A stretch of 64,000 nt of DNA from positions 33,609 through 97,608 of the forward strand of contig JAQBQD010000155.1 of the NCBI GenBank assembly GCA_028287185.1, given 5' to 3'. Numbering within the stretch: position 1 is the first letter of the stretch; each line of letters starts with the position of its first letter. Below are positions 43,050 to 59,148 of this stretch, piece after piece. The stretch comes from Gemmatimonadota bacterium. Its GTDB lineage: Bacteria; Gemmatimonadota; Gemmatimonadetes; Longimicrobiales; Longimicrobiaceae. A model generated the notes under the pieces. It did not search any database. It saw nothing but the letters and a program-made list of their open reading frames with translations, and had not been told where the DNA came from. The translations under genes and the position numbers were made by a program.

Positions 43050-43850
43050 CTACTCGGGCGCGGAGAAGCGGGCGAGCATCCCGCGCACGTCCTCCAGCGA
43101 GGCGCCGGGGTGCCGCTCGCGGATGAGCGCCACGATGCCGGCGATGTGCGGCGCCGCGAAGCTGGTGCCGCTGCGGGGGATGCGGCGGCCGCCCAGCCAC
43201 AGCACCGGCACCTCCAGGCCCCAGGCCAGGCACTCCATCGCCTCGTCGGGCCGATACCGGAAGGTGAAGGGAGAGTCGAGCTTGCCCGCGTCCACGCCCA
43301 CCGCGTTCTCGAAGACGGCGGGATAGCTCCAGCCGCCCACGTTGTTGCCCGCGGCCACCACGATGGTGCCCTGCCGCCGCGCGCGCTCGCACAGCACGTA
43401 CAGGTGGTCGCGAGTGTCGTCGCGGGTGGTGCCCAGGCTCATGTTCACCACGTCCACCCGCTCCTCCACCGCCCAGCGCAGCGCCTCGCACAGCACCGAG
43501 GGCGACGTCTCCAGCCCCGCGCCGAACACCCGCGCGGGCAGCACGCGCGCGTCCGGGGCCATGCGCAGGATCTGGTCGGCGCAGGCGGTGCCGTGGCCGT
43601 TACGGTCGCCGTCGTCGTCGCTGCGCCCCAGCGCCAGCTCGTCCGCCGTGCTGGCCAGGCCGATGCCGGGCAGCACGCGCGGCTCCGGCAGCGAGCGGTC
43701 CCACCCGCTGTCGATGACCGCCACCCGCACCCCGCGCCCCGTCGCGTCGCCCAGCTCGCGCGCCACCCACGCCGGCCGCGCCGTGGGCGGCGCCGGCTCG
43801 TACGGAAGCGAGGGAAGGGAGGTCCTCCGCGCGCCCGCCGTGCCGCTCAT
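43050..43850 (-). CDS. lanP: Subtilisin-like S8 serine protease, candidate lanthipeptide leader peptidase LanP
   Basis: ATG (cat 43848-43850) overlaps the HlyD stop (ATGA); catalytic triad motifs VAVIDSG (Asp), HGTACA (His), GTSFAAPH (Ser); 266 aa with no obvious signal peptide. Confidence 0.8.
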   Translation of the reverse strand: MSGTAGARRTSLPSLPYEPAPPTARPAWVARELGDATGRGVRVAVIDSGWDRSLPEPRVLPGIGLASTADELALGRSDDDGDRNGHGTACADQILRMAPDARVLPARVFGAGLETSPSVLCEALRWAVEERVDVVNMSLGTTRDDTRDHLYVLCERARRQGTIVVAAGNNVGGWSYPAVFENAVGVDAGKLDSPFTFRYRPDEAMECLAWGLEVPVLWLGGRRIPRSGTSFAAPHIAGIVALIRERHPGASLEDVRGMLARFSAPE

Positions 43851-45037
43851 TCGGGGCGTCCCTCCATGCGGTCCCACAGGTAGTCCCACACCAGCACGAT
43901 CACCCGGCCGCGGCGGGTCACGATCTGCCCCTCCACCGTGTAGCCGCGCCGGAACTTGTGGATGCCGATGCGGTCCAGCTGGCGCTGGTCCAGTCGCGCC
44001 GTCACCCGGTACAGGCCCCCCGCCTGCGGCACCCCGCCCGCCGCGGCGGCCGGCGACGCGGAGAGCGGCTCGGGGCTCACGTACACCACGCTGCCGCGCA
44101 GGCGCTCGTCCTCGTCGGCGTTGAAGGCCTGCACCTGCACCTGCACCGAGTCGCCGAGGCGGATGCGGTGCACGTCGCGCTCGCGCACCAGCAGGTTCAC
44201 CCGCCACCCGTCCAGGTCGGCCACCTCCAGCAGCTGGTCGCCCTCGCGCACGTAGCTGCCCGGCAGCCGCTCGATCTGCTCGGTCAGCACCACCCCGTGC
44301 GTGGGCGAGCGCAGCGACAACCGGCCCAGACGCTGGCGCAGCGCCGCGATCTGGGCCGTGAGCTGGGCCTGCTCCACCGTCCGCTTGTCGCGGTCGAAGC
44401 GTTCCAGCGCCAGCATGTCGCGCTGCGTGCCCCCCATGCGCACCTCCGACTCGGCGGCGCGCACCTCGGCCACGGCCAGGTCGATCGCCACGTGCTGGCC
44501 CACCCGGTAGGCCGCCAGCAGCGAGTCGGGATCGCTGCCCATCCCGTTCTCCACCATGCGCTGGCGCAGCCCGGCGCGCGCCGTCACCAGGTGGTTGCGC
44601 GCCTGCTCCACCTTCTCGTCCTGCTGCCGCACCTCCACCGGCGCCGCCCGCTCGGCCCGCGCCACGTCGATCTGCGATGCGCGGAGCTGCGCCTCCAGGC
44701 CGTCCAGGGTGGAGGCGAGCGCCAGCGGGTCCAGCCGCACCAGCTCGCGCCCGGCGGACACCGTGTCGCCCGTGCCCACCAGCACGCGGCTCACCGTGCC
44801 CGCCTCCTGCGCGCGCACCGGCCACACGCCCACGGGCTCCATGCTGCCCGCCGCCTTCACCGTCACGTGGATGGACACCAGGCACGCCACGGCCAGCGCC
44901 AGGGCGGTCAGCCCCGCCAGCGTGCCCAGGGTGAGGCCCACGGCGCGCTTCACGAAGCCGGCGCCGGGGTTGCCCTCGTCGCCCAGCGCGGGCAGCTCCA
45001 GCCGCAGGGGCGGCCGGTCCTTCGGCGCCGTGCTCAC
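43847..45037 (-). CDS. HlyD-family membrane fusion (periplasmic adaptor) protein of the lanthipeptide exporter
   Basis: GTG start (cac 45035-45037) overlapping the ABC stop (GTGA); N-terminal TM (AVGLTLGTLAGLTALALAVACLV), long coiled-coil, C-terminal beta domain; the upstream 829-aa six-frame ORF is artefactual. Confidence 0.8.
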   Translation of the reverse strand: MSTAPKDRPPLRLELPALGDEGNPGAGFVKRAVGLTLGTLAGLTALALAVACLVSIHVTVKAAGSMEPVGVWPVRAQEAGTVSRVLVGTGDTVSAGRELVRLDPLALASTLDGLEAQLRASQIDVARAERAAPVEVRQQDEKVEQARNHLVTARAGLRQRMVENGMGSDPDSLLAAYRVGQHVAIDLAVAEVRAAESEVRMGGTQRDMLALERFDRDKRTVEQAQLTAQIAALRQRLGRLSLRSPTHGVVLTEQIERLPGSYVREGDQLLEVADLDGWRVNLLVRERDVHRIRLGDSVQVQVQAFNADEDERLRGSVVYVSPEPLSASPAAAAGGVPQAGGLYRVTARLDQRQLDRIGIHKFRRGYTVEGQIVTRRGRVIVLVWDYLWDRMEGRPE

Positions 45038-46842
45038 GGCGTCTGCGCCACCGCGCGCAGGCGGCGCGCGTCGTCCACGCCGGCGCCCTGCAGCTGTCGG
45101 TAGGTCTCGCACTCCCGCATCAGCTCGGCGTGGGTGCCCGTGCCCACCACCCGGCCGGCCTCCACCACCACGATCTGGTCGGCCAGCGCCGCCGTGGCCA
45201 CGCGGTGGGTCACGAACAGCACCGTGCGCCCCTGGCCGCGGGCGAACAGGTCGCGCAGGATCTCCGTCTCCGTCTGCATGTCCACGTTGCTGGTGGCTTC
45301 GTCCAGCAGCAGCACCGGGGTGTCGCGGATGATGGCCCGCGCGATGGCCAGGCGCTGCCGCTGCCCGCCCGAGAGCGTGGCGCCCCACTCGGCGACGGAG
45401 GTGGCGTACCCGTTGGGCAGCCCCGCCACCAGCTCCTCCAGCCGGCACAGGCGCACGGCGTCGTCCACCCGCTCGCGCGAGGGCTCGTCCGCGCCCATGG
45501 TCAGGTTCTCCCAGATGGTGCCCTGCATGAGCGCGAACTCCTGCCACACCACCGAGGTCTGCCGGCGCAGGTCGGGCAGCGAGATCTTGCTCGCGGGCAC
45601 CCCGTCCAGGTACAGCTGCCCCTCGTCCGGCTCCTCCATGCGCGTCACCAGGCGCAGCAGCGACGACTTCCCGGCGCCGCTGGGGCCCACGATGGAGGTC
45701 ACGGTCCCGCGGGGAAAGTGCAGCGTCACGTCGTGCAGCACCCGCTTCTCGGCCGAGTAGCCGAACGACACGTCGCGCAGGTGGATGTCGCCGCGCATGC
45801 GGTGCGCCACGGGCGGCGCCGGCGCGTAGGCCTGCGCGGGGTCCTGCTCCACGGGCAGGTCCAGGTACTCGAACATGCGCCCCAGGTTCACGGCGCTCTG
45901 CTGGAAGTCCGAGAACAGCCCCGTGATCTGCGCCAGCGGGTTGTACAGGTATCCCATGTACGAGGTGAAGGCGATGTAGTCGCCCAGCGTCATCTCCTGG
46001 CGCAGGATGAGCATCCACGCGTACCACGTGAACACCGCCGTGCCCAGCGCGCGGATGGTGCCGTTGGCCAGCCCGAAGATCTGCCCGAAGCCGCCCGCCT
46101 TGAGCTGCACCTGCAGCGCGTCCTGCATCTGCCGCGCGGCCCGCGTGTACAGGTGGTGCTCCATCGCCAGCGCTTTCAGGGTGCGGATGTGGCTCAGCAC
46201 CTCCACCTGGAAGGCGCCCAGGTCGGCGTACGCCTCGGCGCTCCGCTTCCAGTAGCGGCGCAGCACCCGGGCCGAGAGCGTGGTCACCATCACCGTCAGC
46301 GGGATGGTGATGAGCGACACGATGGCCAGCTTCCACTGCAGGAGGAAGAGGAAGGGCGGCACCAGCAGCAGGTAGACGCCGTTCACGAACAGCGTCTCGA
46401 ACACCTTGCTCACGCTGTTCAGCGAGCTGCGCACGTCGGCGAAGCGGCTCATCACCTCGCCCACCCGATGCTCGTCGAAGAAGCGCACCGTCAGGTGCTG
46501 CAGGTGGTTGAAGAAGAGCAGCCCGGTGGCGTTGGAAAGGTGCGAGGTGGTGTAGGTGGTGAAGTAGCCCCGGATGGCGCCCATCACCGTCCCGGCGATG
46601 GTGAACGCGAAGGTGCCCAGCACCAGCATCTCCATCAGCGGCACGTTGCGCGCCGGGTAGGCCTGGTCGATGAGCAGCTTGGACAGGTACGGCGGAAGCA
46701 TGCCGAACACGCCCAGCACCAGCCCCAGGGCCATCCCCTTCATGAGGGGGCCCCAGTACGGGCGGATCAGCCGCAGCAGCCGGAAGAACTGCTGGAAGGC
46801 TTCCCGCAGCGGCGGGATGTCGGCACGGGCGGCGGGCGGCAT
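45034..46842 (-). CDS. lanT: ABC exporter (fused TMD-NBD, no N-terminal C39 peptidase domain), candidate LanT
   Basis: 602 aa; six TM helices then Walker A GPSGAGKSS, signature LSGGQRQR, Walker B LLLDEATS; absence of a C39 domain is consistent with a separate LanP (class I). Confidence 0.85.
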   Translation of the reverse strand: MPPAARADIPPLREAFQQFFRLLRLIRPYWGPLMKGMALGLVLGVFGMLPPYLSKLLIDQAYPARNVPLMEMLVLGTFAFTIAGTVMGAIRGYFTTYTTSHLSNATGLLFFNHLQHLTVRFFDEHRVGEVMSRFADVRSSLNSVSKVFETLFVNGVYLLLVPPFLFLLQWKLAIVSLITIPLTVMVTTLSARVLRRYWKRSAEAYADLGAFQVEVLSHIRTLKALAMEHHLYTRAARQMQDALQVQLKAGGFGQIFGLANGTIRALGTAVFTWYAWMLILRQEMTLGDYIAFTSYMGYLYNPLAQITGLFSDFQQSAVNLGRMFEYLDLPVEQDPAQAYAPAPPVAHRMRGDIHLRDVSFGYSAEKRVLHDVTLHFPRGTVTSIVGPSGAGKSSLLRLVTRMEEPDEGQLYLDGVPASKISLPDLRRQTSVVWQEFALMQGTIWENLTMGADEPSRERVDDAVRLCRLEELVAGLPNGYATSVAEWGATLSGGQRQRLAIARAIIRDTPVLLLDEATSNVDMQTETEILRDLFARGQGRTVLFVTHRVATAALADQIVVVEAGRVVGTGTHAELMRECETYRQLQGAGVDDARRLRAVAQTP

Positions 46843-47058
46843 CGGCGGAACGTCACTCCAGGGCTTGCGCGGGCGCGGAGGAGCCGGATCGCTCCCGCCG
46901 GGTCCGCGGAGGGCGGCCAGAAACGGCGCGATTCGCCTTTCCGGCCATCATCCAACATAACCAGAACGCTCTCCCACGCACCACTGCCTCCGCGGCGGAG
47001 GACCGGACGTCCGGCGGGAGCCTTCCCGGCCCCGCCGGCGCCCGGTCCCGCGGGCGGC

Positions 47059-47319
47059 TCAGCACTCGCAGGTCTGCGCGCAGGTGAAGCAGGTGGGGCG
47101 GCACGAGATGCCGCACGACTCGTTCGCCTGGCAGGTGTCGACGAGCGTGCAGTCGCCGCACCCGGTGTACGCGCACGACTCCTCGTCCGTGCAGAAGTAG
47201 GTGCTGCACACCCCGTCGCGCGACAGGTGCGCGTGCACCGTCCCGCGCTCCGGCTCCGCCGCCGCCGTCTCGAACGAGTCCACCGACAGCGCGTCCAGGT
47301 CCAGCCTCAGCTTGCGCAT
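47059..47319 (-). CDS. lanA: Lanthipeptide precursor peptide LanA2: FNLD-type leader + very Cys-rich core (12 Cys, 12 Ser/Thr in about 51 aa)
   Basis: ATG at 47317-47319 with gggagg RBS 7 nt upstream; MRKLRLDLDALSVDSFETAAAEPERGTVHAHLSRDGV | CSTYFCTDEESCAYTGCGDCTLVDTCQANESCGISCRPTCFTCAQTCEC; leader resembles nisin/subtilin leaders (FNLDLVSV / FDLDVVKV). Confidence 0.7.
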   Translation of the reverse strand: MRKLRLDLDALSVDSFETAAAEPERGTVHAHLSRDGVCSTYFCTDEESCAYTGCGDCTLVDTCQANESCGISCRPTCFTCAQTCEC

Positions 47320-47348
47320 GCAAACCTCCCGCTCACGGGTGTCCGCGC

Positions 47349-47454
47349 GGGCCGCGGCACCTCCGCGGCCCGAACCGGCCCGCGGTGCCCGCGGGCCTTT
47401 CCGTCCGGCAGGGGAAGGGACGCGGGGCGGGTGGAAAGGCGCCCGCCCCGCGTC
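47349..47454 (-). other. Three consecutive GC-rich stem-loops in the lanA1-lanA2 intercistronic spacer
   Basis: gggccgcgg-cacct-ccgcggccc (47349-47371), ggcccgcgg-tgc-ccgcgggcc (47378-47398), gacgcggggcggg-tggaaaggcg-cccgccccgcgtc (47419-47454); the last one follows the lanA1 stop by about 10 nt. Confidence 0.6.
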
Positions 47455-47464
47455 TCCGAAAAGG

Positions 47465-47761
47465 TCAGACGCAGTCGTACGGGAAGCCGCCGCCGGGCGC
47501 CGCGGCGGCGCCGGGGGCCAGGCCGCAGCCGTTGAAGGTCTCCGGCGGCGACGCGCCGCAGGTGCCGCCGTAGCTGTACCCGCACTGCGCCCACCCCGTG
47601 TCGGGGCACACCTGCACGACCGAGTCCGGACAGTCCGCCGTGTCGCAGAAGGCGGTGCCCACCATCCGGAGCCCCAGCACCGTTCCCCGTCCGCGCCCCG
47701 CCTCCGCCGTCTCGAACGTCTCCACGTTCAGGTCCTCGAGGTCCAGCCGCAGCTTTCTCAT
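47465..47761 (-). CDS. lanA: Lanthipeptide precursor peptide LanA1: FNLD-type leader + Cys/Gly-rich core (7 Cys, 8 Ser/Thr)
   Basis: ATG at 47759-47761 with aaggag RBS; MRKLRLDLEDLNVETFETAEAGRGRGTVLGLRMVG | TAFCDTADCPDSVVQVCPDTGWAQCGYSYGGTCGASPPETFNGCGLAPGAAAAPGGGFPYDCV; first about 28 aa are near-identical to LanA2. Confidence 0.7.
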   Translation of the reverse strand: MRKLRLDLEDLNVETFETAEAGRGRGTVLGLRMVGTAFCDTADCPDSVVQVCPDTGWAQCGYSYGGTCGASPPETFNGCGLAPGAAAAPGGGFPYDCV

Positions 47762-47885
47762 GGGGCTCCTTCCGTTCTGGGTGATGAGGGTACCCGGGCC
47801 TGCAACCTGCCTCCACCGGTTCCGAAGCGCGGCGCGCCCCGACCGACGGCGCTGGACCGGCGGAGGACCGGCCGGGCTCCGGACG

Positions 47886-49907
47886 TCAGCCCGGCACGCC
47901 CGCCCCGGCCGGCTCGCTCTCCACGAACCCGGCGCGGTAGGCCTGCCGAAGCTGCTCCAGCACGCGGCCCCGCAGCCAGTCGCGGTCGGGCGCGCGGTCG
48001 CCGGACACGGCCTCGGCCACGCGGTCCACCACGTCGTCCAGGAGCGCGGAGCCGCGCGTCGCTTCCAGCACCACGGCGGCGAAGGGCGTCAGCCGGCGCT
48101 CCACCACCTTTCCTCCGATGGACTGCAGGAGCACGAACACGTCGTCCTCGGGCGGCAGGGGCTCGCCGGCCGCGTCCTCCAGCCAGCCGTCCCAGTCGCG
48201 GAGGGAGTGGACGAGCCGCGCGCGGGGCGAGAGCGCGAAGGCGGCCTCGTCCCACGCCACCTCGTCCTCCTCCGCGCGCACCAGCGAGGCGATGAACTCC
48301 GCCGTGTTGTCCTCCACCGCCCGCCACAGCTCCACCCGCGCCAGGTCCAGCCGGGCCGCGTCCTCCAGCAGCGCAGCGCGGTCGCCGCCGCCCTCGGCGG
48401 AGATCCGGGCCTTCACGCCGTCGACCGCGGCGGCGACGGGCGAGCGTTCGCGGTTCCCGTCCGCCGCCGCCGCGGCGCGCACGGCGGCGCCATCCGCCCC
48501 CACCGCGGTGAAGGTCCGCAGCGTACGCCCCAGGTAGCCGTCCACGTCGGCCCCGCGGGCCTCGCGGCGGCCGGGCTCGGCCGCCGCGCGGTCGGGGTGC
48601 GCGCCGTCGCGGGTGACGAGGAGGACGGAGGGGACCTCCGGCAGCGCCAGGCGCAGCAGGAACCACCCGATGCCGGACTCGCCCAGCAGCAGGCCGGGGT
48701 CGGAGACTCCTCCCAGGGTGCCGCAGGGCCAGCTCACCCCGGGCCGCTCCCAGCGCTCCACGCCGGTCAGCATGCAGTCCTCCGCCGTCGTCCGCAGCGT
48801 GTCGTCGCCCAGCACGCGCGCGCCGTACAGCAGCGTCTCGCAGTTGCCCGCGCGGCCATGGCAGAGCGAGTAGTTCATCCGGTCGTCCACGATGGAGGCG
48901 AGCGTGGCGCGGAGGGCGGCCTCCGCCTCGTCGCGGTACAGGGGCTCGCCCAGCAGCTCCCACGCGCGCAGCCGGGTGAGGCCGATGCCGGGCGCGCCGT
49001 GGCACCACGCGCTCATGTGGCGCGGCTCGTAGGCGGGAAATCCCTCGGGGCTCGCGATCCGGCGGCGCAGCTCGTCGATGCGGCCGGCGTGCAGGTACTC
49101 GGACAGGTCGCTGTGGCGCAGGTCGGGCCAGTTGTCGTGCTCGGCGCTGAAGGTGCGCCGCTCGTAGACGAAGGCCTGCTCCGCGCCGTGCAGCCAGTGC
49201 CCCTCGCCGGTGGCGTCGTACAGCTCCAGCAGCGCGTGCCCGAAGCCCGCCGCGCCGTGCGCCAGCCCGTTCAGGTTGCGGGCGGACGACTGCGGCATGG
49301 TGGCCCACGACCACCCGTCGGGCTCGCGCACGGCCGTGGCCAGCAGGTTGTCGCCCATGCGCTGCGCCCGCTCCAGCATCCACGCGCCGTCCAGCTCGTC
49401 CGCCATCGCCAGCAGGGCGGGGATGGCGCCCGCCGCGCCGGCGATCACGTCCAGCCCGCGGTCCTGCGCCTCGGCGCCCTCCAGCGGCGCCAGCGTGCGG
49501 CGGGCGGCATCCCGCATCTCCTCCATCCCCAGCAGCTTCGCGGCGCGCAGGGCGGCGTAGGCGATGCCCACGCGGCCCGAGTGGAAGCCGTTCGAGCCGG
49601 GGGGTAGCCCGTCGGCCTCGGCCAGCGAGAAGCGCAGGGCCCCGGCGGCGGCGCGGGCCGCCTCGCGGTCTCCGGTGGCGGCGGCGAGCTGGGCCAGGAA
49701 GAGGGCGATGCCCGCCGTGCCCTCGTAGACGGTGCCCCCGGCGCGGGCGGGCACCGCCACGCGGGCGGCCTGGTTGTCGCGGTCGGGGCTCATCACCTGC
49801 CAGGTGCAGGCGTCGCCCTCCCACAGCGCCTGGGACGCCACGCGCGCGCCGATGCGCGCGGCCGCGTCCAGCAGCGCGCCGCTGCGGGGGTTCTCCGGGT
49901 TGGGCAT
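47886..49907 (-). CDS. lanC: LanC-type lanthipeptide cyclase with about 240-aa C-terminal extension of unknown function
   Basis: ATG at 49905-49907 (MPNPENPRSGALLDAAARIG...); LanC zinc-ligand/active-site motifs GLAHGAAGFGHALLEL, WCHGAPGIGL, LCHGRAGNCE; ORF continues about 240 aa beyond the usual LanC end without any Met. Confidence 0.8.
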   Translation of the reverse strand: MPNPENPRSGALLDAAARIGARVASQALWEGDACTWQVMSPDRDNQAARVAVPARAGGTVYEGTAGIALFLAQLAAATGDREAARAAAGALRFSLAEADGLPPGSNGFHSGRVGIAYAALRAAKLLGMEEMRDAARRTLAPLEGAEAQDRGLDVIAGAAGAIPALLAMADELDGAWMLERAQRMGDNLLATAVREPDGWSWATMPQSSARNLNGLAHGAAGFGHALLELYDATGEGHWLHGAEQAFVYERRTFSAEHDNWPDLRHSDLSEYLHAGRIDELRRRIASPEGFPAYEPRHMSAWCHGAPGIGLTRLRAWELLGEPLYRDEAEAALRATLASIVDDRMNYSLCHGRAGNCETLLYGARVLGDDTLRTTAEDCMLTGVERWERPGVSWPCGTLGGVSDPGLLLGESGIGWFLLRLALPEVPSVLLVTRDGAHPDRAAAEPGRREARGADVDGYLGRTLRTFTAVGADGAAVRAAAAADGNRERSPVAAAVDGVKARISAEGGGDRAALLEDAARLDLARVELWRAVEDNTAEFIASLVRAEEDEVAWDEAAFALSPRARLVHSLRDWDGWLEDAAGEPLPPEDDVFVLLQSIGGKVVERRLTPFAAVVLEATRGSALLDDVVDRVAEAVSGDRAPDRDWLRGRVLEQLRQAYRAGFVESEPAGAGVPG

Positions 49908-49945
49908 GGGGGCCACGCTCGCTTCTCCTGCCGGTGACGGGGGGC

Positions 49946-50917
49946 TCACGCCGTGGCCTCTGCGCCGGCCGGGGCCGGCACCGCCAGGGCGCGGTGGATC
50001 AGGTACGCCAGGTACGACTCCTCCTGGATGCTGACGCCCAGGCGGTTGTTCATCATGTGCACGTAGCTGGGCACGATGGCCGCGACGGCGAACTCCCAGG
50101 TGTCGATCGCCCCGCCCTCGCGAAGCAGTCGCCCGGCGTCGAACAGCTCGCGGAAGCGGACGCGCACCTCCGCCAGGTCGTCGCGCCAGCGGTCCAGCGC
50201 CTCGGAGAGCTCCTCGCCCGTCGCCAGTCGCTCCCAGGCCTCGTCCACGTACGCCGTCAGGTTCCCCGCCTGCTGCTCGAAGCCGCTGCCGAAGGCGTCC
50301 AGCCACGCGCTACGCCGCTCGTCGTCGGGCACCATCGAGCGCAGGTAGTTGATGCCGTACTGCCGCGCGAACTCCGCGGCCGCTGTGCGCTCGGGGTGGA
50401 AGGCGTGCACCAGCACCACCATCGCCAGCAGCCCCTTGCCCAGGCGGCCGCTGCGCTCGGTGGGGTGCACGCGCGCCAGCAGGGCCAGCGCGGCTTCGCT
50501 GGAGCGGTGGAAGAGCTCTTCCGCCAGCAGCACGCCGTCGGGGCCGCCGTAGCGCTCCGTCTCCGGCTCGTACACCGCCTCGGCCACGTGCGTCACCCCC
50601 TCGCCGCCGCTGCCGATGGGCTCCGGATAGCCCTCCTGAAGGTCGGGATACAGGGCCGCCAGGTGCCTGCGCAGCGCGGGCCTCACCTCGCGCTCCAGCA
50701 CGTCGCGCTCGCCGTGGAACCGCAGCCGCACGTGGAAGCCGCGCTCGCTGTAGCGGATGAAGAACCACCGGTCGGCCCACCCGCGCTCGGCGCAGGCGCG
50801 GACGAACGGCTCCACGGCGTCGCGCACGATGGCGTCGCAGTCCCCGCCGTAGATGTTCTCGCGCAGGAACAGGTACTCGCTCAGCCAGGCCTTCTCCATC
50901 TCAGGCGAGGGCGGCAT
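49946..50917 (-). CDS. lanB: Lanthipeptide dehydratase, glutamate-elimination domain (Lant_dehydr_C/SpaB_C-like); stand-alone ORF of a split LanB
   Basis: 323 aa; MPPSPEMEKAWLSEYLF...WFFIRYSERGFHVRLRFHG matches the WF(F/Y)IRY...H(L/V)RLR start of LanB C-terminal domains; overlaps the upstream ORF by 17 nt in a different frame. Confidence 0.75.
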   Translation of the reverse strand: MPPSPEMEKAWLSEYLFLRENIYGGDCDAIVRDAVEPFVRACAERGWADRWFFIRYSERGFHVRLRFHGERDVLEREVRPALRRHLAALYPDLQEGYPEPIGSGGEGVTHVAEAVYEPETERYGGPDGVLLAEELFHRSSEAALALLARVHPTERSGRLGKGLLAMVVLVHAFHPERTAAAEFARQYGINYLRSMVPDDERRSAWLDAFGSGFEQQAGNLTAYVDEAWERLATGEELSEALDRWRDDLAEVRVRFRELFDAGRLLREGGAIDTWEFAVAAIVPSYVHMMNNRLGVSIQEESYLAYLIHRALAVPAPAGAEATA

Positions 50918-53900
50918 GCGCCTCCCCCCGCGCGGGCGCGGCGCCGGCGTTCGCGGTCCCCTCCGGAAAGTCGAGCTGCACCACCATCTCCGTGGCCCAG
51001 CGCCCGCCGGCCACCTCGGCCAGCGCGTCGGGCCCGGGCAGGCGCTCCTCCACGATCACGTTGAAGTGCTTCACCCCCGCGGCCAGCTTGCCCAGCAGCC
51101 CCACCAGCAGCGGGTTGCCAAAGTCCATGAACTGCGGCTTGTAGAAGTCGCGCGACGGCGTGGTCACCTTCACCGGCGGGCCCTTCGCGTCGTCCTCCGC
51201 CTTCGCTCCCTCGGCCTCGGCCGCCTTCGCCGCCTCGGGCTGCTCCGGCTCGTCCGCGGCGGGCATCGCCTCGGCGCCCACGTTCATGGCCGCCTCCTGG
51301 GCGTCCATCGCCGCCGGCGTCTCGTCCCCCGGCTTCTTGGCCGCGGGGTCCGGAATGGGGATCATCCGCACGTAGCAGCTTTCCGGCAGCCCCGCGTCGC
51401 GCCGCCAGCGGGTGGCGCGCACGAAGAAGTCGGCGGCCGTCTCGTCCGCCGCGCGCTGCGGGACGAGGACGCCCGGCACCAGCCACCGCCGCCGGGTCAC
51501 CAGCACCCGCCCGCCTATGGAGATGCGCGGCCGGTGCGAGATCTCCGGCGGGGCAGGGGGCGGCGCCTCGGCCTTCGTCTCCTCGGCGGACGCATCCTCC
51601 GCGGTCGCCGCCTCAGCTCCGGCGTCCGCCGAGGCGATGGAATCCGTGGCCTCGCCGTCCGCCGTCTTCGCGACCCCATCGGACGCAACCACCTGCGCAG
51701 CGGCGGACGCTTCCGGCGCCGCGGCGTCCGCGGTATCGGGAGATGCGACGCCCTCCACGGGGGCGGCCGTATCCGCAGCCGCATCGACCGGCACGCCGTC
51801 GGCCGGCGGAGCCGGGCGCGGCGGGTTGACGGGCGTCTCGGGCACGGACGGCGCGAAGGTGACGGGCGGGGTGAAGCGCGACAGGAGCTGGTACAGCGGC
51901 GGCCGCATGCGCGGGTTCAGGAACCCCAGGTCCACGGGGATCACCCGCCGGCCGCTGGGCCCGTGGCGCAGGGCGAGCGAGTGCGGGTCCTCGGGATCCG
52001 GCTCCACGAACAGGTCCGAGCTGCGGAGCTGGTCGGCCGCGTCGCCGCTCTCGCCCGTGGGGTAGCTGATCTCCCAGCGCATCAACGAGGGGTGCAGGTT
52101 GGCGTTGAACTGCGCATCGCCGCAGATCTCCGCCAGCAGCTCGTCCGTGAGCGCCTGGTTGCCGGCGCGCACCTCCTCCAGGAAGTCTTCCGGCAGCATG
52201 TACAGGAAGCGCGAGAAGTACTTGCCGTACCCCGCGGTGTAGCTGCCGCTCTGCAGCAGGAAGGCGGGGTCGCCCCCCTCCTCGCGCGGGGGCACCAGCA
52301 GGGTGAACGCGCTCACGGAGCGGCACGGCGCCGGCTGCGGCTCGACCCCCGCCAGGGCCTCCTCCACCTCGGCCAGCGGGATCGTGACCTCGGCCGCGTC
52401 GGGCGCCTCGCGCCAGCGCGCCACGATGCGCTCCTGCAGCCGCATGCGCGCCTCGTTGAGCGCCTGGATAAAGGGCAGCTTGAAGGGGTTGTTGACGTCG
52501 TATCCCTCCAGCGCCGCCTTGTCCGCCCCGCCGCGCGCCTTCTGCTCCTTCTCCACGTGCGCCTTGAAGTGCTCGCGGTAGAAGTCCTCGTAGAACTGCA
52601 AAAGCGGCACGCCGTGCCGGTCGCCGTACTGCATGTCGAAGAAGTGCCGCATGGTGGCCTGCTCGGCCCGCGGCCACGCCAGGCGCGAGGTGAGGCGCGC
52701 CCAGTCCACCAGCGCGTCCGTGGCCCGACGCACGCCGGGCGTGAGCGCCACGGTGGCGTCCGCGTCGGCCGTGGCGTCCTCGTAGAACGGCATGTCCTTC
52801 CGCAGGCGGGCCTTCACCTCCATGGCCGTGAACGCCTCGTCGATGGCGGCGTGGATCTCGGCCACCACGGCCTCGCGCCTCTCCACCGGCGCCGCCGCGT
52901 AGGCGTCCGTGCGCTCTCGCACCTGGCGCAGCAGGGCGGCGGCGCGCGTGGCGTGCTCGTCGTCCAGCGCGTCCAGCAGCGCGGCGAAGGGCAGGTCCCA
53001 GTCGGCGTCCTGCTCGCGGATGCCGGTGTGGAAGCGCAGGAAGCCGATCTCGATCAGCTTCTCCAGGTACGCCTCCGCCTCCTCGGTGCTGGCGTCGATC
53101 TGCGGATCGCGCGTCAGCCGGTCCACCAGGTCGCCCAGCGTGGGCGCCGGGTCGGCGGCGAACACCTGCGTGATCACCTGCAGCACCTCGTTGGCGGCCA
53201 CGCGCTGGAACACCTCGCGCCCCTGCACGGCCGACAGGAAGACCAGGCGGGCGCCCTCGGTGCGCAGCGTGGGGTTGGGCTCCACCACCAGCCGCCGCCG
53301 CACGCCGGGCCGCTCCTTGAGGTGATCCAGCAGGATGCCGTACAGCAGCTTGTTGATGCGCACGAAGCTGCGCTTGGCCCGGGGGTCGCCGTGCAGGCGC
53401 AGCAGGCCGCCCTCGCCGTCCTCCGCCGCCCCGTCCTCGGTGAAGCGGCCGGGGACCACGGCGCAGAACGCCGCGAAGGGCGTCGCCTTCATGGCCATGC
53501 GCGTGTAGTAGCGCAGCAGCCCGCGCTCCGTCTTCTCGTCCTTGCCCGAGAGCGCGCCGGCCGTTCCCGCCGTGTAGCGGTCCAGCGACGCGTGCAGCGA
53601 ACGGCTGGACACCAGCAGCCCCTTCCGGAACTCCGGATCGCGCAGCAGCTGGCGGAAGGCCGCCCGGGCCGTTCCGCTCTCCTCGCCGTACGCCGCCGCC
53701 ACCTCCGCCGCCAGCGCGTCGCGCTCCACCAGCGCCTGCTGCAGCGCTCCAACCTCGGATGCCTGCTCGGTGGAGAGCTGCGCGCAGGCGCCTTCCAGCA
53801 CCTCCGCCGGCAGCGGACGCAGGTTGAACAGCTCGCGCCGGGCGCGCAGCAGGCGTTTGCGCGCCGCGCCGTCGTCCCCCGCCGCGCCGATGGCGGCGAA

Positions 53901-54116
53901 CAGCAGGGCCGAGACGGCCTCGCGGCGCTCCGCGAGCGCGTCCTCGGCCGCCAGCAGCGCGTCCAGGCGCTCCAGCGTGCGGGTGGCGCGCATCTGCTCG
54001 ACGCCGTCCACCGGCGCGCCCGAGATCCGGCATACGAAGCGGCGCACCAGGCGCTCGGCCTCCCGCCCGGGGCGGTCCTCGTTCCAGGTGTCGGCGGTCA
54101 CTTCGGCGTTCTCCAT
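50901..54116 (-). CDS. lanB: Lanthipeptide dehydratase, glutamylation domain (Lant_dehydr_N-like) with long Ala/Pro/Asp/Glu-rich low-complexity inserts
   Basis: ATG at 54114-54116 (MENAEVTADTWNEDRPG...); motif YYTRMAMKATPFAAFCAV corresponds to the conserved Y.TRM..R.TPFGLF of LanB; 1071 aa; the upstream part of the 1144-aa six-frame ORF is non-coding-like. Confidence 0.75.
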   Translation of the reverse strand: MENAEVTADTWNEDRPGREAERLVRRFVCRISGAPVDGVEQMRATRTLERLDALLAAEDALAERREAVSALLFAAIGAAGDDGAARKRLLRARRELFNLRPLPAEVLEGACAQLSTEQASEVGALQQALVERDALAAEVAAAYGEESGTARAAFRQLLRDPEFRKGLLVSSRSLHASLDRYTAGTAGALSGKDEKTERGLLRYYTRMAMKATPFAAFCAVVPGRFTEDGAAEDGEGGLLRLHGDPRAKRSFVRINKLLYGILLDHLKERPGVRRRLVVEPNPTLRTEGARLVFLSAVQGREVFQRVAANEVLQVITQVFAADPAPTLGDLVDRLTRDPQIDASTEEAEAYLEKLIEIGFLRFHTGIREQDADWDLPFAALLDALDDEHATRAAALLRQVRERTDAYAAAPVERREAVVAEIHAAIDEAFTAMEVKARLRKDMPFYEDATADADATVALTPGVRRATDALVDWARLTSRLAWPRAEQATMRHFFDMQYGDRHGVPLLQFYEDFYREHFKAHVEKEQKARGGADKAALEGYDVNNPFKLPFIQALNEARMRLQERIVARWREAPDAAEVTIPLAEVEEALAGVEPQPAPCRSVSAFTLLVPPREEGGDPAFLLQSGSYTAGYGKYFSRFLYMLPEDFLEEVRAGNQALTDELLAEICGDAQFNANLHPSLMRWEISYPTGESGDAADQLRSSDLFVEPDPEDPHSLALRHGPSGRRVIPVDLGFLNPRMRPPLYQLLSRFTPPVTFAPSVPETPVNPPRPAPPADGVPVDAAADTAAPVEGVASPDTADAAAPEASAAAQVVASDGVAKTADGEATDSIASADAGAEAATAEDASAEETKAEAPPPAPPEISHRPRISIGGRVLVTRRRWLVPGVLVPQRAADETAADFFVRATRWRRDAGLPESCYVRMIPIPDPAAKKPGDETPAAMDAQEAAMNVGAEAMPAADEPEQPEAAKAAEAEGAKAEDDAKGPPVKVTTPSRDFYKPQFMDFGNPLLVGLLGKLAAGVKHFNVIVEERLPGPDALAEVAGGRWATEMVVQLDFPEGTANAGAAPARGEAHAALA

Positions 54117-54571
54117 CGTCACCGGAAGGATCTGTTGCGGCAGAATGTGGCAGAAACAGGCAGGCGCGCCGGCCGCGCTGGTCTCGCGGCAGGAATCGGC
54201 CTGCCGAGCAGCCGTGGGCCGAGCCAGGATATGCGATACAAAGCGCTTACGGATGATATTCGCGGAGCCCAAATCTCGCAAGCCGCCGCCATTTGCGTAG
54301 GGCCGCACCCGTCCGCGCCCACCATCCCAGATCACCAGCAGCCATCTCGTTGCTCCTGCGCCCCTTCCGTCTTTTCAGACGCCCGCAGGCGATCGAGTCT
54401 CTGGAACGCCGGCGAATTCTCCACGTCGCAAAGGGAGCGAACCATACATCAGAAATCGACTGGACCGGCTACAGGTGTTTCGATCCCCGGCATGTCTCCC
54501 GTGCTCGGAGCTCGAGGCCCCTCGTCGAAAGAAGTCCGGCCCTTCCGTCCCCGCTGACGGCGTGCGGAGCG

Positions 54572-54862
54572 TTACTGCTCCACCTGCACGCCCTTCCAGA
54601 ACGCCACGTGATCGCGAATGTTCGCGGCGGGGTCCTTCGGCTCCGGGTAGTACCAGGCCGCGTCGCGATTCGTCTCGCCGTCCACCACCACGTCGTAGTA
54701 GCTGGCCGTTCCCTTCCACGGGCAGACGGTCTGCGTGGCGCTGTCGCGAAAGTGCTCGCGGCTCACCGCATCCGGCGGAAAGTAGACGTTGCCCTCCACC
54801 ATCTGCACCCGCTCCTGCGGCGCCTCGGCGATCACGGCGCCCTTCCACGTTGCCTTCGGCAT
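54572..54862 (-). CDS. DUF427-domain protein
   Basis: ATG at 54860-54862: MPKATWKGAVIAEAPQERVQMVEGNVYFPPDAVSREHF...CPWKGTASYYDVVVDGETNRDAAWYYPEPK matches the DUF427 pattern. Confidence 0.6.
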   Translation of the reverse strand: MPKATWKGAVIAEAPQERVQMVEGNVYFPPDAVSREHFRDSATQTVCPWKGTASYYDVVVDGETNRDAAWYYPEPKDPAANIRDHVAFWKGVQVEQ

Positions 54863-55000
54863 GCGACGTTCTCCTGGCCTGTGGATTCGCTGCGGTTCCG
54901 GACCCGTCCGACGCGATTCCACTACGGCGGCGGAAGATGGATGCATCCTGCAACAGTTCATCGTCCACCTCGACGTGCGGCGCTCCTGCGGGAGAGGAAT

Positions 55001-55756
55001 CTATAGCCCGGTGGGATGATCGATGAACTCCCACGCGATGCCGAACTTCTCCTCCAGGTGGCGCGCCAGGGCCTTCACGCCCCACGTCTCGGTGGCGTAG
55101 TGGCCGCCCAGGAAGAGGTTGACGCCGCCCTCCTCCGCGTCGAAATAGTTGTGATGTGCACCTTCTCCTGTGATGAACGCGTCCAGCCCCGCCGCGGCGG
55201 CCGCGCCCACCATGCTGCCCGCGCCGCCGGTGATGATGCCCATCCGGCGCACGCGCTCGGGCCCACCCGGCACCAGCTTCACGCGCACGCCCAGCACCTC
55301 GTCCAGGCGCGCGCAGAGCGCCTCGCGGCGCAGGTCCAGCTCGCCCCACACCCCCAGCGGCCACCCCTTGTAGTCCGCGAACGTCCCCCGCGGCTCCATG
55401 CCCAGCGCGCGGGCGAGCACGGCATTGTTGCCCACCTCGGGGTGCACGTCCAGCGGCAGGTGCGCCGAGTAGACGGCCAGGTCCGCGTGGAACAGCGCGC
55501 GCAGCCGGCGATAGCGCCGTCCGGTGACGGGCTGGCTGCCGTCCCAGAACAGGCCGTGGTGCACCAGAAGCAGGTCTGCGCCGCTGGCGGCCGCGCGCTC
55601 CACCACCGCCTGGGCCGCGTCCACCGCCACCGCGATCCGGCGCACCTCGCCGCGGCCGGTGTCCAGCTGCAGGCCGTTGAGCGCGCCTGCGTAGTCCGGC
55701 ACCTCGCAGATGCGCAGGTAGTCGTCCAGGTACTCGGTCAGCTCGCTCGGGGTCAC
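55001..55756 (-). CDS. Nif3-family dinuclear-metal-centre protein (YqfO/YbgI-like)
   Basis: VTPSELTEYLDDYLRICEVPDYAGALNGLQLD...; start uncertain (GTG at 55754-55756 preferred; the ORF's ATG at 55873 would place a DnaA-box cluster inside an atypical N-terminal extension). Confidence 0.65.
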   Translation of the reverse strand: MTPSELTEYLDDYLRICEVPDYAGALNGLQLDTGRGEVRRIAVAVDAAQAVVERAAASGADLLLVHHGLFWDGSQPVTGRRYRRLRALFHADLAVYSAHLPLDVHPEVGNNAVLARALGMEPRGTFADYKGWPLGVWGELDLRREALCARLDEVLGVRVKLVPGGPERVRRMGIITGGAGSMVGAAAAAGLDAFITGEGAHHNYFDAEEGGVNLFLGGHYATETWGVKALARHLEEKFGIAWEFIDHPTGL

Positions 55757-55780
55757 GCGGGGCGCGGGGTTCCGGCCGGT

Positions 55781-55888
55781 TCCACAATTGTGGATAACGA
55801 CGGTGGATAAACCTGGGATGTTTCTGTGGAAAATCTGCAACCCAATGTGGGACGCAGGTTTAAGACTGCACACCGCGTTTGTGGAGAA
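55781..55888. promoter_or_regulatory. Cluster of DnaA-box-like 9-mers (candidate oriC element or DnaA-regulated region)
   Basis: TGTGGATAA (55789-55797, perfect DnaA box), GGTGGATAA (55802-55810), TGTGGAAAA (55825-55833), TGTGGAGAA (55880-55888), plus inverted TTCCACA (55781-55787); locally A/T-richer; about 3.5 kb from parAB-mnmG. Confidence 0.5.
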
Positions 55889-56356
55889 CTACGCGAAGCT
55901 TTGTTCAGGTTCGCCTGGCGGAAGGGCGTGGGGCAGCGGCTGCGGAGCGCCGTCCATCATCCGGATCTGGCCGTTGAACTGCGCCCCCTCCTCCAGCGAC
56001 AGGTGGTGGGGATGGGTGCGGATCTCGCCCTCGATGTCGCAGGTGGACTGCAGCGTCAGCCGCTCGGCCGTCAGCGTCCCGCGGATGCGCCCGCCGATCA
56101 CGATGGTTTCGGCCGTGACGTCGCCGACGATCTCGCCCTCCTTGCCGATGAACACCGATCGGCCCGCGCGCAGCGTGCCCTGGATGCGTCCCTCCACGCG
56201 GATCTCGCCCTCGGTGGTCACGTCGCCCACCACCACCATCCCGGGACCGATCAGCGAGATCGATCCCACCTCCGCATTGCGGATCGCCGAAGCCACCTTG
56301 TCTCGTGCCACGGACCCTCCCGGCCGGTCGTTCGTTTTCTTTCCGAAGATCGCCAT
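55889..56356 (-). CDS. Bactofilin (DUF583) cytoskeletal protein
   Basis: MAIFGKKTNDRP...; repeated beta-helix pattern IGPGMVVVGDVTTEGEIRVEGRIQGTLRAGRSVFIGKEGEIVGDVTAETIVIGGRIRGTL. Confidence 0.75.
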   Translation of the reverse strand: MAIFGKKTNDRPGGSVARDKVASAIRNAEVGSISLIGPGMVVVGDVTTEGEIRVEGRIQGTLRAGRSVFIGKEGEIVGDVTAETIVIGGRIRGTLTAERLTLQSTCDIEGEIRTHPHHLSLEEGAQFNGQIRMMDGAPQPLPHALPPGEPEQSFA

Positions 56357-56368
56357 TCTCTCACGCCC

Positions 56369-57133: not shown

Positions 57134-57230
57134 GCGCCGCTCGTCCCGGTCGCGGGGCTTCGCCACGTCGGCCCGCCTCAGCGCAAAAGCGGGGAATGGA
57201 CCCCGCCCCGGGATGTCGATCCCGCGTCGG

Positions 57231-59032: not shown

Positions 59033-59120
59033 GCTGCTCCTCTGGGTGTGGTCTTGCTGCGGGAGTCGGGAGTGGTTCGCGCAATATAACGCGCGTGCGC
59101 GCGAGGCGTCCAGCGAAGCC

Positions 59121-59146: not shown

Positions 59147-59148
59147 TC

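What the first reader, a model, noticed from the sequence alone, without database searches (positions are those of the whole stretch)
49946..54116. LanB encoded as two ORFs with a 17-nt out-of-frame overlap, plus large low-complexity inserts
The glutamylation-domain ORF (1071 aa) ends at 50901. The elimination-domain ORF (323 aa, WFFIRYSERGFHVRLRF...) starts at 50917 in another frame. This may be a genuine split LanB, as in thiopeptide-type dehydratase pairs. Alternatively it may be a single LanB interrupted by a frameshift or assembly indel. The N-domain ORF also carries two long Ala/Pro/Asp/Glu-rich disordered inserts, about 120 aa (PPVTFAPSVPETPVNPPRPAPPADGVPVDAAADTAAP...EAPPPAPPE) and about 60 aa. 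These are unusual for LanB enzymes.
Basis: partly seen in the sequence, partly recalled or inferred. Interest (0 to 1): 0.6.

Follow-up and report, generated by a model that had tools for sequence, protein, structure and literature searches.

The report
Genuine split lanthipeptide dehydratase with disordered loops
The two overlapping genes are a real, evolutionarily conserved two-protein version of the enzyme that dehydrates lanthipeptide antibiotics, not a sequencing error, and its odd alanine/proline/acid-rich stretches are floppy surface loops typical of this bacterial lineage.

Summary
A 1071-aa ORF (54116→50901, minus strand; Lant_dehydr_N only) and a 323-aa ORF (50917→49946; complete Lant_dehydr_C) overlap by 17 nt in different frames. 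The split is genuine. All 120 best homologues of each protein carry only one of the two domains. In 70 related genome loci holding both genes, 62 have them as tightly juxtaposed separate ORFs. Their junction geometries differ (overlaps of 1-20 nt, small gaps, all three relative frames), which no single indel can explain. The small protein keeps the catalytic Arg/Arg/His set of NisB-type (anti) glutamate lyases. The large one is closest in fold to the stand-alone glutamylases TbtB and GodF. Context is a class I, pinensin-like lanthipeptide cluster from a Gemmatimonadota (Longimicrobiaceae-like) MAG: LanC, two Cys-rich precursors, an ABC exporter and an S8 protease. The two inserts (aa ~757-857 and ~923-985) are predicted disordered loops at fixed positions. 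They are family-typical, variable in length, and their composition tracks genomic GC. This is a new member of a known kind, of modest interest.

The parts
50901..54116 (-). lanB-N: stand-alone glutamylation subunit (predicted Glu-tRNA(Glu)-dependent Ser/Thr glutamyl transferase), 1071 aa
   Evidence: Pfam PF04738 at E 5.5e-47, with no PF14028. It is 100% identical to NCBI protein P0121, also 1071 aa. The AF2 model has pLDDT 81.6 and pTM 0.81. The best fold matches are TbtB 6EC8 (TMt 0.80) and GodF 9JHQ (0.75). Homologue N-termini support ATG 54116 as the start.
49946..50917 (-). lanB-C: stand-alone glutamate-elimination (glutamyl lyase) subunit, 323 aa
   Evidence: PF14028 covers profile positions 6-255 of 255 at E 7.5e-47. 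TIGR03891 scores 122.7 bits against a cutoff of 48.45. The MP.SPE N-terminus is conserved in homologues. The equivalents of NisB R784/R786, R826 and H961 are present as HVRLRF, ERYGG and YVHMMNNRLG.
50901..50925 (-). Translational-coupling junction: GGAGG (50925-50921), a 3-nt spacer, ATG (50917-50915), and the TGA of lanB-N (50903-50901); 17-nt overlap
   Evidence: Read directly from the sequence. The same GAGGAGG-N3-ATG...CCTGAG arrangement with a 17-nt overlap occurs in L001, L002 and L004, and with a 20-nt overlap in 7 further loci. The nearest relative L081 has GGAGGAGG, a TTG start and an 8-nt overlap.
51546..51848 (-). Insert 1 of LanB-N (aa ~757-857): Ala/Pro/Asp/Glu-rich predicted disordered loop
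   Evidence: pLDDT is below 50 with no secondary structure for aa 773-847. The insert falls between TbtB residues 717 and 724. Across 103 homologues the segment (measured as aa 752-860, including about 20 conserved flanking residues) is 24-170 aa long, median 102, with low conservation. It is long only in Longimicrobiaceae-type loci with GC of 0.70 or more.
51162..51350 (-). Insert 2 of LanB-N (aa ~923-985): Ala/Glu/Pro-rich predicted disordered loop holding a short conserved motif
   Evidence: pLDDT is below 50 for aa 933-977. The insert falls between TbtB residues 789 and 803. It is 24-96 aa long in homologues. It is long in Longimicrobiaceae and Acidobacteriota, and also in low-GC Ignavibacteria where it is Lys/Glu/Ser/Asn-rich; it is short in Cytophagia-type Bacteroidota. 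An embedded motif reads E(I/V)PGY(E/D) in most relatives and AAMN(V/L)G in this subclade.
47886..49907 (-). lanC cyclase with a conserved ~240-aa C-terminal extension that resembles PqqD/RRE (the start could instead be GTG 49952)
   Evidence: PF05147 LANC_like at E 1.1e-54. It resembles the LanM cyclase domain (TIGR03897, 264.8 bits). The extension is conserved in 38 loci. 12 of 20 aligned extensions hit PqqD PF05402, best E 2.9e-5.
47465..47761 (-). Precursor peptide gene A1 (98 aa)
   Evidence: The ORF has GC3 of 0.95. The leader is MRKLRLDLEDLNVETFET, followed by a Cys/Ser/Thr-rich core. Homologous leaders lie next to lanC in related loci.
47059..47319 (-). Precursor peptide gene A2 (86 aa; many Cys in the core)
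   Evidence: The ORF has GC3 of 0.99. It matches the pinensin-leader HMM NF038180 below threshold (E 5.8e-4, 19.7 bits against a cutoff of 24). The core is almost identical in the nearest relative, L081 13305-13565.
45034..46842 (-). ABC exporter (LanT-like, with no peptidase domain detected)
   Evidence: ABC_membrane plus ABC_tran. It is syntenic in 30 or more related loci at 50-80% identity.
43050..44885 (-). Subtilisin-family (S8) protease, the likely leader peptidase; its start is uncertain
   Evidence: PF00082 over aa 383-604. It is syntenic in 24 related loci.
54253..54281 (-). Sigma-70-like promoter candidate upstream of lanB-N (weak evidence)
   Evidence: TTGCGA-17-TATCAT matches 9 of 12 positions and is the only hit in 12.3 kb, where shuffles give 0.3. 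It lies in the 455-nt lower-GC intergenic region.

Best explanation
The locus encodes a two-subunit (split) class I lanthipeptide dehydratase inside a pinensin-like gene cluster of a Gemmatimonadota (Longimicrobiaceae-like) bacterium.

Mechanism, inferred from the NisB/MibB/TbtB-TbtC/SptBa-SptBb paradigm: LanB-N (1071 aa) transfers glutamate from Glu-tRNA(Glu) onto Ser/Thr side chains of the two Cys-rich precursor peptides. LanB-C (323 aa) then eliminates the glutamate to give dehydroalanine or dehydrobutyrine. It probably does so by anti-elimination, because the NisB-type Arg/Arg/His catalytic set is retained. The LanC cyclase adds Cys thiols to form (methyl)lanthionine rings; here it is fused to a PqqD-like leader-recognition domain. 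An ABC transporter and an S8 protease export the product and remove the leader.

The two dehydratase genes are translationally coupled. The start codon and its GGAGG Shine-Dalgarno lie inside the last 25 nt of the upstream gene, giving a 17-nt overlap.

The two low-complexity stretches are intrinsically disordered surface loops inserted at two fixed points of the C-terminal third of the glutamylase fold. They are lineage-typical expansions whose length and composition drift with genomic GC, and they are most likely largely tolerated spacers. Insert 2 carries a short conserved motif that may serve as a contact site.
For: Domains: each ORF holds one complete domain.

The split is conserved:
- The 120 best homologues of the small protein are 298-398 aa and carry PF14028 only.
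- The 120 best homologues of the large protein carry PF04738 only, median 1063 aa.
- Of 70 genome loci holding both genes, 62 have separate ORFs with overlaps of 1-20 nt or gaps of 46 nt or less, in all three relative frames. Seven have the genes further apart. One is fused.
- The nearest relative (76% / 70-71% identity, same chromosomal neighbourhood) is split with a different junction: TTG start and an 8-nt overlap.

Start and RBS: the MP.SPE N-terminus and GAGGAGG-N3-ATG are conserved, and GC3 switches frame at the junction.

Catalysis: the lyase residues align to NisB R784/R786, R826 and H961. The SapT paper gives their roles and describes how syn-type lyases differ (PMC9011353). The glutamylase motif RYYTRMAMKATPF aligns to MadB YLIRMSMRPTPF.

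Fold: TbtB and GodF are the top matches, with full-length LanBs lower.

Cluster: LanC, precursors, ABC and S8 are syntenic across phyla. No YcaO or pyridine synthase is nearby.

Inserts: pLDDT is below 50 only in the inserts and the termini. The positions are fixed but the lengths and sequences vary. Composition tracks GC. Insert 2 carries a motif.

Literature: split LanBs are known for pinensin (pinB1/pinB2) and SapT.
Against: No biochemical or expression data exist for this cluster or any close relative, so all enzymology is inferred by homology.

- The 3-nt SD-to-ATG spacing is shorter than the usual optimum. A second in-frame ATG (50899, 1 nt after the stop) cannot be excluded as the start used.
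- The exact overlap lengths in other loci rest on a heuristic choice of start codon.
- One relative (L042) shows both domains in one frame.
- The precursor leader misses the curated pinensin-leader cutoff.
- The function, if any, of the inserts is unknown. 'Disordered' rests on AF2 confidence and composition only.
Confidence: 0.9

Rival explanations
1. A single full-length LanB gene broken by a sequencing or assembly indel, or by a recent frameshift mutation (a pseudogene).
For: The two ORFs are adjacent, in the order N then C, and overlap out of frame. One relative, L042, has both domains in one frame.
Against: Both products are complete domains with their own conserved termini. The split recurs in about 69 independent loci from several phyla and studies, with different frames and junctions. 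No fused protein appears among the 240 nearest homologues. A conserved SD precedes the ATG. GC3 is high in both frames up to the junction. The L042 'fusion' carries an ambiguous base at the junction and a frameshift elsewhere.
Confidence: 0.02
2. Programmed ribosomal frameshifting in the 17-nt overlap yields a fused full-length LanB in addition to, or instead of, two subunits.
For: The overlap is out of frame, so a +1 shift would join the domains.
Against: The overlap GCATGCCGCCCTCGCCTGA contains no slippery X XXY YYZ motif. Relatives use all three relative frames, in-frame stops and intergenic gaps, so no frameshift signal is conserved. The conserved SD and start codon indicate independent initiation.
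Confidence: 0.01
3. The pair belongs to a thiopeptide, goadsporin-like or other non-lanthipeptide RiPP pathway, or the small protein is a [4+2] pyridine-synthase-type paralogue rather than a lyase.
For: The best sequence and fold matches of LanB-N are TbtB (thiomuracin) and GodF (goadsporin). The small ORF hits TIGR03891 'thiopeptide-type bacteriocin biosynthesis' and, weakly, TbtD_PbtD_pyrid (54 bits).
Against: The pyridine-synthase score is far below its cutoff of 325. The lyase catalytic Arg/Arg/His set is present. A LanC cyclase follows directly, and the precursors are Cys/Ser/Thr-rich with a pinensin-like leader. No YcaO, cyclodehydratase or dehydrogenase gene lies within the cluster or its flanks. 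The same gene set is syntenic in relatives.
Confidence: 0.03
4. The disordered inserts are functional elements rather than tolerated spacers. They might be flexible tethers or docking motifs that assemble glutamylase, lyase and LanC-RRE into one complex. Alternatively they might be acidic nucleic-acid mimics that gate tRNA binding.
For: The insert positions are fixed across the family. Insert 2 persists from 27% to 76% GC genomes and carries a conserved short motif, E(I/V)PGY(E/D) or AAMNxG, with a predicted short helix. The inserts are strongly acidic in this lineage, with net charge of about -16 and -9.
Against: Insert 1 has almost no sequence conservation and its length ranges from 24 to 170 aa. 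Many Bacteroidota relatives, and TbtB and GodF, lack both inserts yet are split too. Acidity is not universal, since the low-GC relatives have polyampholyte loops.
Confidence: 0.2

Closest known systems
Pinensin cluster of Chitinophaga pinensis (pinA, pinB1/pinB2 split dehydratase, pinC, pinT; MIBiG BGC0001392; Mohr et al. 2015, cited in PMC7268733 and PMC10112250)
   Same: It is a class I lanthipeptide cluster with glutamylation and elimination on two polypeptides. It has a LanC related to LanM cyclase domains and an ABC transporter. The leader peptide resembles the pinensin-leader model. More distant members of the same lyase family were found in Pedobacter, Adhaeribacter and other Bacteroidota.
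   Different: - The phylum is different (Gemmatimonadota) and the genome is 72% GC.
- The leader match is below the curated cutoff (19.7 against 24 bits).
- The precursors are much longer (86-98 aa, many Cys).
- The glutamylase carries two long disordered inserts that are short or absent in the Bacteroidota relatives.
- LanC has a PqqD-like C-terminal extension.
- An S8 protease is in the cluster.
TbtB/TbtC (thiomuracin) and GodF/GodG (goadsporin) split dehydratases; structures 6EC7/6EC8 and 9JHQ
   Same: They are stand-alone glutamylation proteins. They are the best sequence matches (profile E 2.6e-41) and fold matches (TMt 0.80 and 0.75) for LanB-N. Each has a separate Lant_dehydr_C lyase partner.
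   Different: Those enzymes act in azole-containing RiPP pathways without a LanC. They are about 860 aa and lack both inserts: insert 1 maps between TbtB residues 717 and 724, and insert 2 between 789 and 803. Sequence identity is only about 19%.
SptBa/SptBb of the SapT cluster (Streptomyces; PMC9011353)
   Same: It is a class I lanthipeptide cluster with a split LanB plus a LanC.
   Different: SptBb is a divergent syn-type glutamyl lyase. It lacks the catalytic His and the NisB Arg826 equivalent, and uses a conserved Lys instead. The lyase here keeps the His and the Arg, so it belongs with the anti-type lyases of split systems described in PMC9486935.
Full-length LanB dehydratases NisB, MibB and MadB (4WD9, 5EHK, 9G04)
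   Same: They have the same two catalytic modules and the same lyase catalytic residues. The glutamylase core has the same fold.
   Different: The domains are fused in one ~1000-1100-aa chain. Similarity to LanB-N is lower (TM about 0.5; profile E of 3.2e-06 for MadB and 5.9e-06 for MibB, with NisB not reaching E 0.01).

Membership tests
Split LanB (two-component class I-type dehydratase) | Glutamylation domain (PF04738) on its own polypeptide, without an elimination domain | tested here: met
   PF04738 at E 5.5e-47 is the only domain. The C-terminus aligns to the C-terminal end of stand-alone TbtB. The fold matches TbtB and GodF.
Split LanB (two-component class I-type dehydratase) | Complete elimination domain (PF14028) on a separate, adjacent polypeptide | tested here: met
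   PF14028 covers profile positions 6-255 of 255 at E 7.5e-47. TIGR03891 scores 122.7 against a cutoff of 48.45. The gene has its own SD and ATG.
Split LanB (two-component class I-type dehydratase) | The split is conserved in orthologues, so it is not a lesion of one assembly | tested here: met
   69 of 70 loci are split, with varied junction geometries.
Split LanB (two-component class I-type dehydratase) | Lyase catalytic residues (NisB Arg784/786, Arg826, His961) | tested here: met
   A profile alignment to NisB and MibB aligns HVRLR, ERYGG and the H of YVHMMNNRL. These residues are invariant in the 20-sequence family alignment: R64, R66, R122 and H287.
Split LanB (two-component class I-type dehydratase) | Glutamylase catalytic residues (NisB Arg83, Arg87, Thr89 and others) | tested here: inconclusive
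   Only the R-x3-(R/K)-x-T-P-F motif was checked, through the MadB alignment: R206, K210 and T212, with K in place of the second R. The assignment to NisB numbering comes from memory and was not tested.
Split LanB (two-component class I-type dehydratase) | Glu-tRNA(Glu)-dependent dehydration activity of the pair | not testable with these tools
   This needs in vitro reconstitution or heterologous co-expression.
Class I lanthipeptide gene cluster | A LanC cyclase and Cys plus Ser/Thr-rich precursor(s) next to the dehydratase | tested here: met
   LANC_like at E 1.1e-54. Two precursor ORFs lie directly downstream. The arrangement is syntenic in relatives.
Pinensin family lanthipeptides (NCBIfam NF038180 leader) | The precursor leader matches the leader_pinensin model above its cutoff | tested here: not met
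   The 86-aa precursor scores 19.7 bits (E 5.8e-4) against a cutoff of 24. The 98-aa precursor gives no hit. The peptides are related in style but are not certified members.
Thiopeptide / linear azole-containing peptide pathways | A YcaO cyclodehydratase (plus dehydrogenase) and, for thiopeptides, a [4+2] pyridine synthase in the cluster | tested here: not met
   No such Pfam domains occur in any gene from 35114 to 61116. TbtD_PbtD_pyrid scores 54 bits against a cutoff of 325.
syn-type glutamyl lyases (SptBb / CoiSA-ED type) | Loss of the catalytic His and of the NisB Arg826 equivalent | tested here: not met
   The His (H287) and the Arg (R122) are present and invariant. The criteria are taken from PMC9011353.

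The most novel reading that the evidence does not exclude
The two disordered inserts, insert 2 with its conserved E(I/V)PGY(E/D) or AAMNxG motif above all, may be functional. They could be flexible tethers or short linear docking motifs by which the stand-alone glutamylase recruits its separate lyase subunit and the RRE-bearing LanC into one processing complex. Alternatively they could be acidic tRNA mimics that regulate access of Glu-tRNA. This would be a previously undescribed assembly or regulatory device in RiPP dehydratases.
Probability: 0.15. Interest if true: 0.5.

Novelty: new member of a known kind. Interest (0 to 1): 0.28.

Why it matters
The result settles an annotation question: the two genes should not be 'repaired' into one LanB or flagged as a pseudogene.

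It also places a well-conserved split-LanB class I lanthipeptide cluster in Gemmatimonadota (Longimicrobiaceae), with relatives in Acidobacteriota, Ignavibacteriota and Bacteroidota. No product has been characterised in the first three of these phyla, as far as the searched literature shows. The precursors are unusually long and Cys-rich, so the products could be structurally new lanthipeptides.

The lineage-specific disordered loops in the glutamylase and the RRE-like tail on LanC are minor architectural variants. They could inform how split dehydratase systems recognise substrates and assemble. Nothing here challenges current understanding.

Tried and rejected
- Frameshift or indel artefact: rejected on conservation of the split and on the diversity of junctions.
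- Programmed frameshifting: there is no slippery site and the frames are not conserved.
- Longer start for LanB-N at GTG 54335: rejected. Homologues and the NCBI model start at the equivalent of ATG 54116, and a promoter-like site falls inside the extension.
- Alternative start for LanB-C at ATG 50899: less likely, because the MP.SPE N-terminus and the upstream SD are conserved. It is not excluded.
- Tandem DNA repeats as the origin of the inserts: only short, weak repeats were found.
- Thiopeptide cluster: no YcaO or pyridine synthase is present.
- The single fused relative, L042: it has an ambiguous base at the junction and a frameshift near the N-terminus, so it is unreliable.
- Sequence-profile search of the LanC extension against PDB: nothing significant. 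Only the Pfam PqqD hits in 12 of 20 relatives were informative.
- Literature search for this cluster family in Longimicrobium: it found only a genome announcement listing uncharacterised lanthipeptide BGCs.

Full report
OBSERVATION

The window has 72% GC. On the minus strand, an ORF runs from ATG 54116 to the TGA at 50903-50901 and encodes 1071 aa; the longest possible version starts at GTG 54335. A second ORF runs from ATG 50917 to a stop ending at 49946 and encodes 323 aa. They overlap by 17 nt, and the downstream frame is +1 relative to the upstream frame.

Pfam finds only Lant_dehydr_N (E 5.5e-47) in the first ORF. In the second it finds a complete Lant_dehydr_C (profile positions 6-255 of 255, E 7.5e-47). 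NCBIfam adds TIGR03891 for the small ORF. Third-position GC stays at 0.95 or more in the N frame until about 51000 and in the C frame from about 50960. This is the pattern expected of two real coding regions that abut.

It is gcggggggaggcgcATG, which holds a canonical GGAGG (50925-50921) 3 nt upstream of the start.

IS THE SPLIT REAL?

Both proteins are 100% identical to NCBI entries from a Gemmatimonadetes MAG, where they are annotated as two proteins (P0001 and P0121).

- The 120 best homologues of the small protein are all 298-398 aa and carry PF14028 only.
- The 120 best homologues of the large protein carry PF04738 only, with a median length of 1063 aa.

I fetched 80 related genome loci and located both domains with HMMs built from these homologues. 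Seventy loci hold both genes.

- In 62 loci they are separate, tightly juxtaposed ORFs. The overlaps are 1, 4, 8, 11, 14, 17 or 20 nt, or there are gaps of 46 nt or less. All three relative frames occur, including in-frame stops.
- In 7 loci the genes lie further apart.
- In 1 locus (L042) the two domains share one frame. That 'fusion' has an ambiguous base exactly at the junction and a frameshift near its N-terminus, so it is unreliable.

The start codons in this survey were chosen heuristically, so individual overlap lengths are approximate.

The closest genome relatives L001, L002 and L004 repeat the window's arrangement: GAGGAGG, 3 nt, ATG CCN ... CC TGA G, with a 17-nt overlap. Seven further loci have the same arrangement with a 20-nt overlap. 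The N-terminus MP.SPE of the small protein is conserved, which supports ATG 50917 as the start.

The nearest relative of all is L081 (76% and 70-71% identity). It has the same chromosomal neighbours: gidA, parA, parB, M23 peptidase, bactofilin, NIF3 and DUF427. It is split as well, but with a TTG start, an 8-nt overlap and GGAGGAGG 6 nt upstream.

A single indel cannot produce this pattern, so the frameshift/assembly alternative is rejected. Programmed frameshifting is also unlikely, because there is no slippery motif and the frame relationship is not conserved.

WHAT THE TWO PROTEINS ARE

The AlphaFold2 model of the large protein is confident (mean pLDDT 81.6, pTM 0.81). Its best structural matches are stand-alone glutamylation subunits of split dehydratases: TbtB from the thiomuracin pathway (TM 0.80-0.81 normalised to the target) and GodF from the goadsporin pathway (0.75). 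Full-length MadB, MibB and NisB score about 0.5. Sequence and profile searches of the PDB rank TbtB, GodF, MadB and MibB in the same order; NisB did not reach the E 0.01 threshold.

A profile of the small protein aligns with NisB and MibB as follows:

- HVRLRF matches NisB HIRLRI (Arg784/786).
- ERYGG matches NisB ERYGG (Arg826).
- The His of YVHMMNNRLG matches the first His of NisB IIHVHNNRL, which by my count of the alignment is His961.

These residues are invariant in the family alignment. According to PMC9011353, the His is the catalytic base and the Arg acidifies the alpha-proton. Syn-type lyases such as SptBb lack both. The protein here is therefore a canonical, probably anti-eliminating, glutamyl lyase. 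It corresponds to the 'anti-GLs of split LanB systems' group described in PMC9486935.

CONTEXT

Directly downstream on the minus strand lie the following genes:

- A LanC cyclase (LANC_like, E 1.1e-54; similar to the LanM cyclase domain).
- Two precursor genes of 98 and 86 aa, with the leader MRKLRLDLxxLxVxSFET and Cys/Ser/Thr-rich cores.
- An ABC exporter and an S8 protease.

The 86-aa precursor matches the pinensin-leader model just below threshold. Its core is almost unchanged in L081.

This gene order is conserved in Longimicrobiaceae, Acidobacteriota/Thermoanaerobaculia, Rhodothermales and Ignavibacteria. No YcaO, dehydrogenase or pyridine synthase gene is nearby, and the flanks are housekeeping genes. 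The cluster (about 43050-54116) is thus a class I lanthipeptide cluster with a split dehydratase.

That architecture is already described for pinensin (pinB1/pinB2) and SapT (SptBa/SptBb), and was noted in genome-wide surveys. The only paper I found that links Longimicrobium with lanthipeptides is a genome announcement listing uncharacterised clusters.

THE INSERTS

I aligned 103 full-length homologues. The large protein is well conserved except in two stretches, aa ~757-860 and ~923-985. In the alignment to TbtB these fall between TbtB residues 717/724 and 789/803. They are therefore true insertions relative to the solved structure.

AlphaFold gives pLDDT below 50 and no secondary structure for aa 773-847 and 933-977, apart from a 6-residue helix. 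Everything between and around these stretches is confidently folded. Both inserts are poor in hydrophobic residues (about 10% against 29% elsewhere) and acidic: 19 Asp+Glu against 3 Lys+Arg, and 15 against 6. No substantial tandem DNA repeats underlie them.

Both sites are variable loops across the family.

- The insert-1 segment, measured as aa 752-860 and so including about 20 conserved flanking residues, is 24-170 aa long (median 102). The insert-2 segment, measured as aa 923-988, is 24-96 aa long (median 80).
- In the wider locus set, insert 1 is long only in Longimicrobiaceae-type genomes with GC of 0.70 or more.
- Insert 2 is long in those genomes and in Acidobacteriota. It is also long in 27-35% GC Ignavibacteria-type and Arcobacter loci, where it is Lys/Glu/Ser/Asn-rich. 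It is short in Cytophagia-type Bacteroidota.
- Composition therefore follows genomic GC, while position is conserved.
- Insert 2 contains a short conserved motif: E(I/V)PGY(E/D) in most Longimicrobium relatives and AAMN(V/L)G in the window's subclade.

My reading is that these are disordered surface loops, largely tolerated spacers, with a possible contact motif in insert 2. Their function was not shown.

VERDICT

The RBS is not weak.

The system is a new, uncharacterised member of a known kind, a split-LanB class I lanthipeptide cluster. It has two lineage-typical architectural variants: disordered inserts in the glutamylase, and a PqqD-like tail on LanC. All enzymatic steps are inferred by homology and none was tested.

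Noticed in passing
window 47889-48617 (-), the C-terminal ~240 aa of the LanC gene 47886-49907: LanC carries a conserved C-terminal extension, found by tblastn in 38 related loci. Pfam finds nothing in the window copy, but 12 of 20 aligned relatives hit PqqD (PF05402, best E 2.9e-5). This suggests a RiPP-recognition-element-like domain fused to the cyclase. I found no paper describing such a fusion, though I did not search for it specifically.
   Followed up: partly
window 47465-47761 (-) and 47059-47319 (-); L081 12273-12659, 12905-13231, 13305-13565: The precursor peptides are unusually long (86-128 aa), share the leader M(R/M)KL(R/K)L(D/E)L..L.V(E/D)(S/T)F.T, and have very Cys-rich cores. 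The 86-aa peptide's core is nearly identical between the window and its nearest relative, which points to a conserved, heavily cross-linked product.
   Followed up: partly
window 51162-51350 (-), insert 2 of LanB-N: A short conserved motif sits inside an otherwise variable disordered loop. It reads E(I/V)PGY(E/D) in most Longimicrobium homologues and is replaced by AAMN(V/L)G in the window's subclade. AF2 predicts a 6-residue helix there (aa 939-944).
   Followed up: partly
L042 1118-4744 (MAG Gemmatimonadetes fen_1231): This is the only related locus in which the glutamylation and elimination domains lie in one reading frame. It has an ambiguous base (X) at the junction and a frameshift near the N-terminus, so it may be an assembly problem rather than a natural fusion.
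   Followed up: partly
window 43050-44885 (-): The S8 protease ORF is 611 aa but the S8 domain covers only aa 383-604. In the nearest relative L081 the same stretch is two genes: an HlyD/AprE-like protein of 400 aa and an S8 protease of 261 aa. The window ORF may therefore be a fusion, an over-extended ORF, or two genes with a missed boundary.
   Followed up: no
window 54117-54571: A 455-nt intergenic region of lower GC (about 0.66) lies upstream of lanB-N. It holds the only sigma-70-like promoter match in 12 kb (TTGCGA-17-TATCAT, 54281-54253, minus strand). No terminator-like sites occur anywhere in 42800-55100.
   Followed up: no
window 55001-61116 (-): The cluster lies immediately downstream of an origin-proximal housekeeping block: gidA/mnmG, parA, parB, M23 peptidase, bactofilin, NIF3 and DUF427. 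The same neighbourhood is kept in the nearest relative L081.
   Followed up: partly
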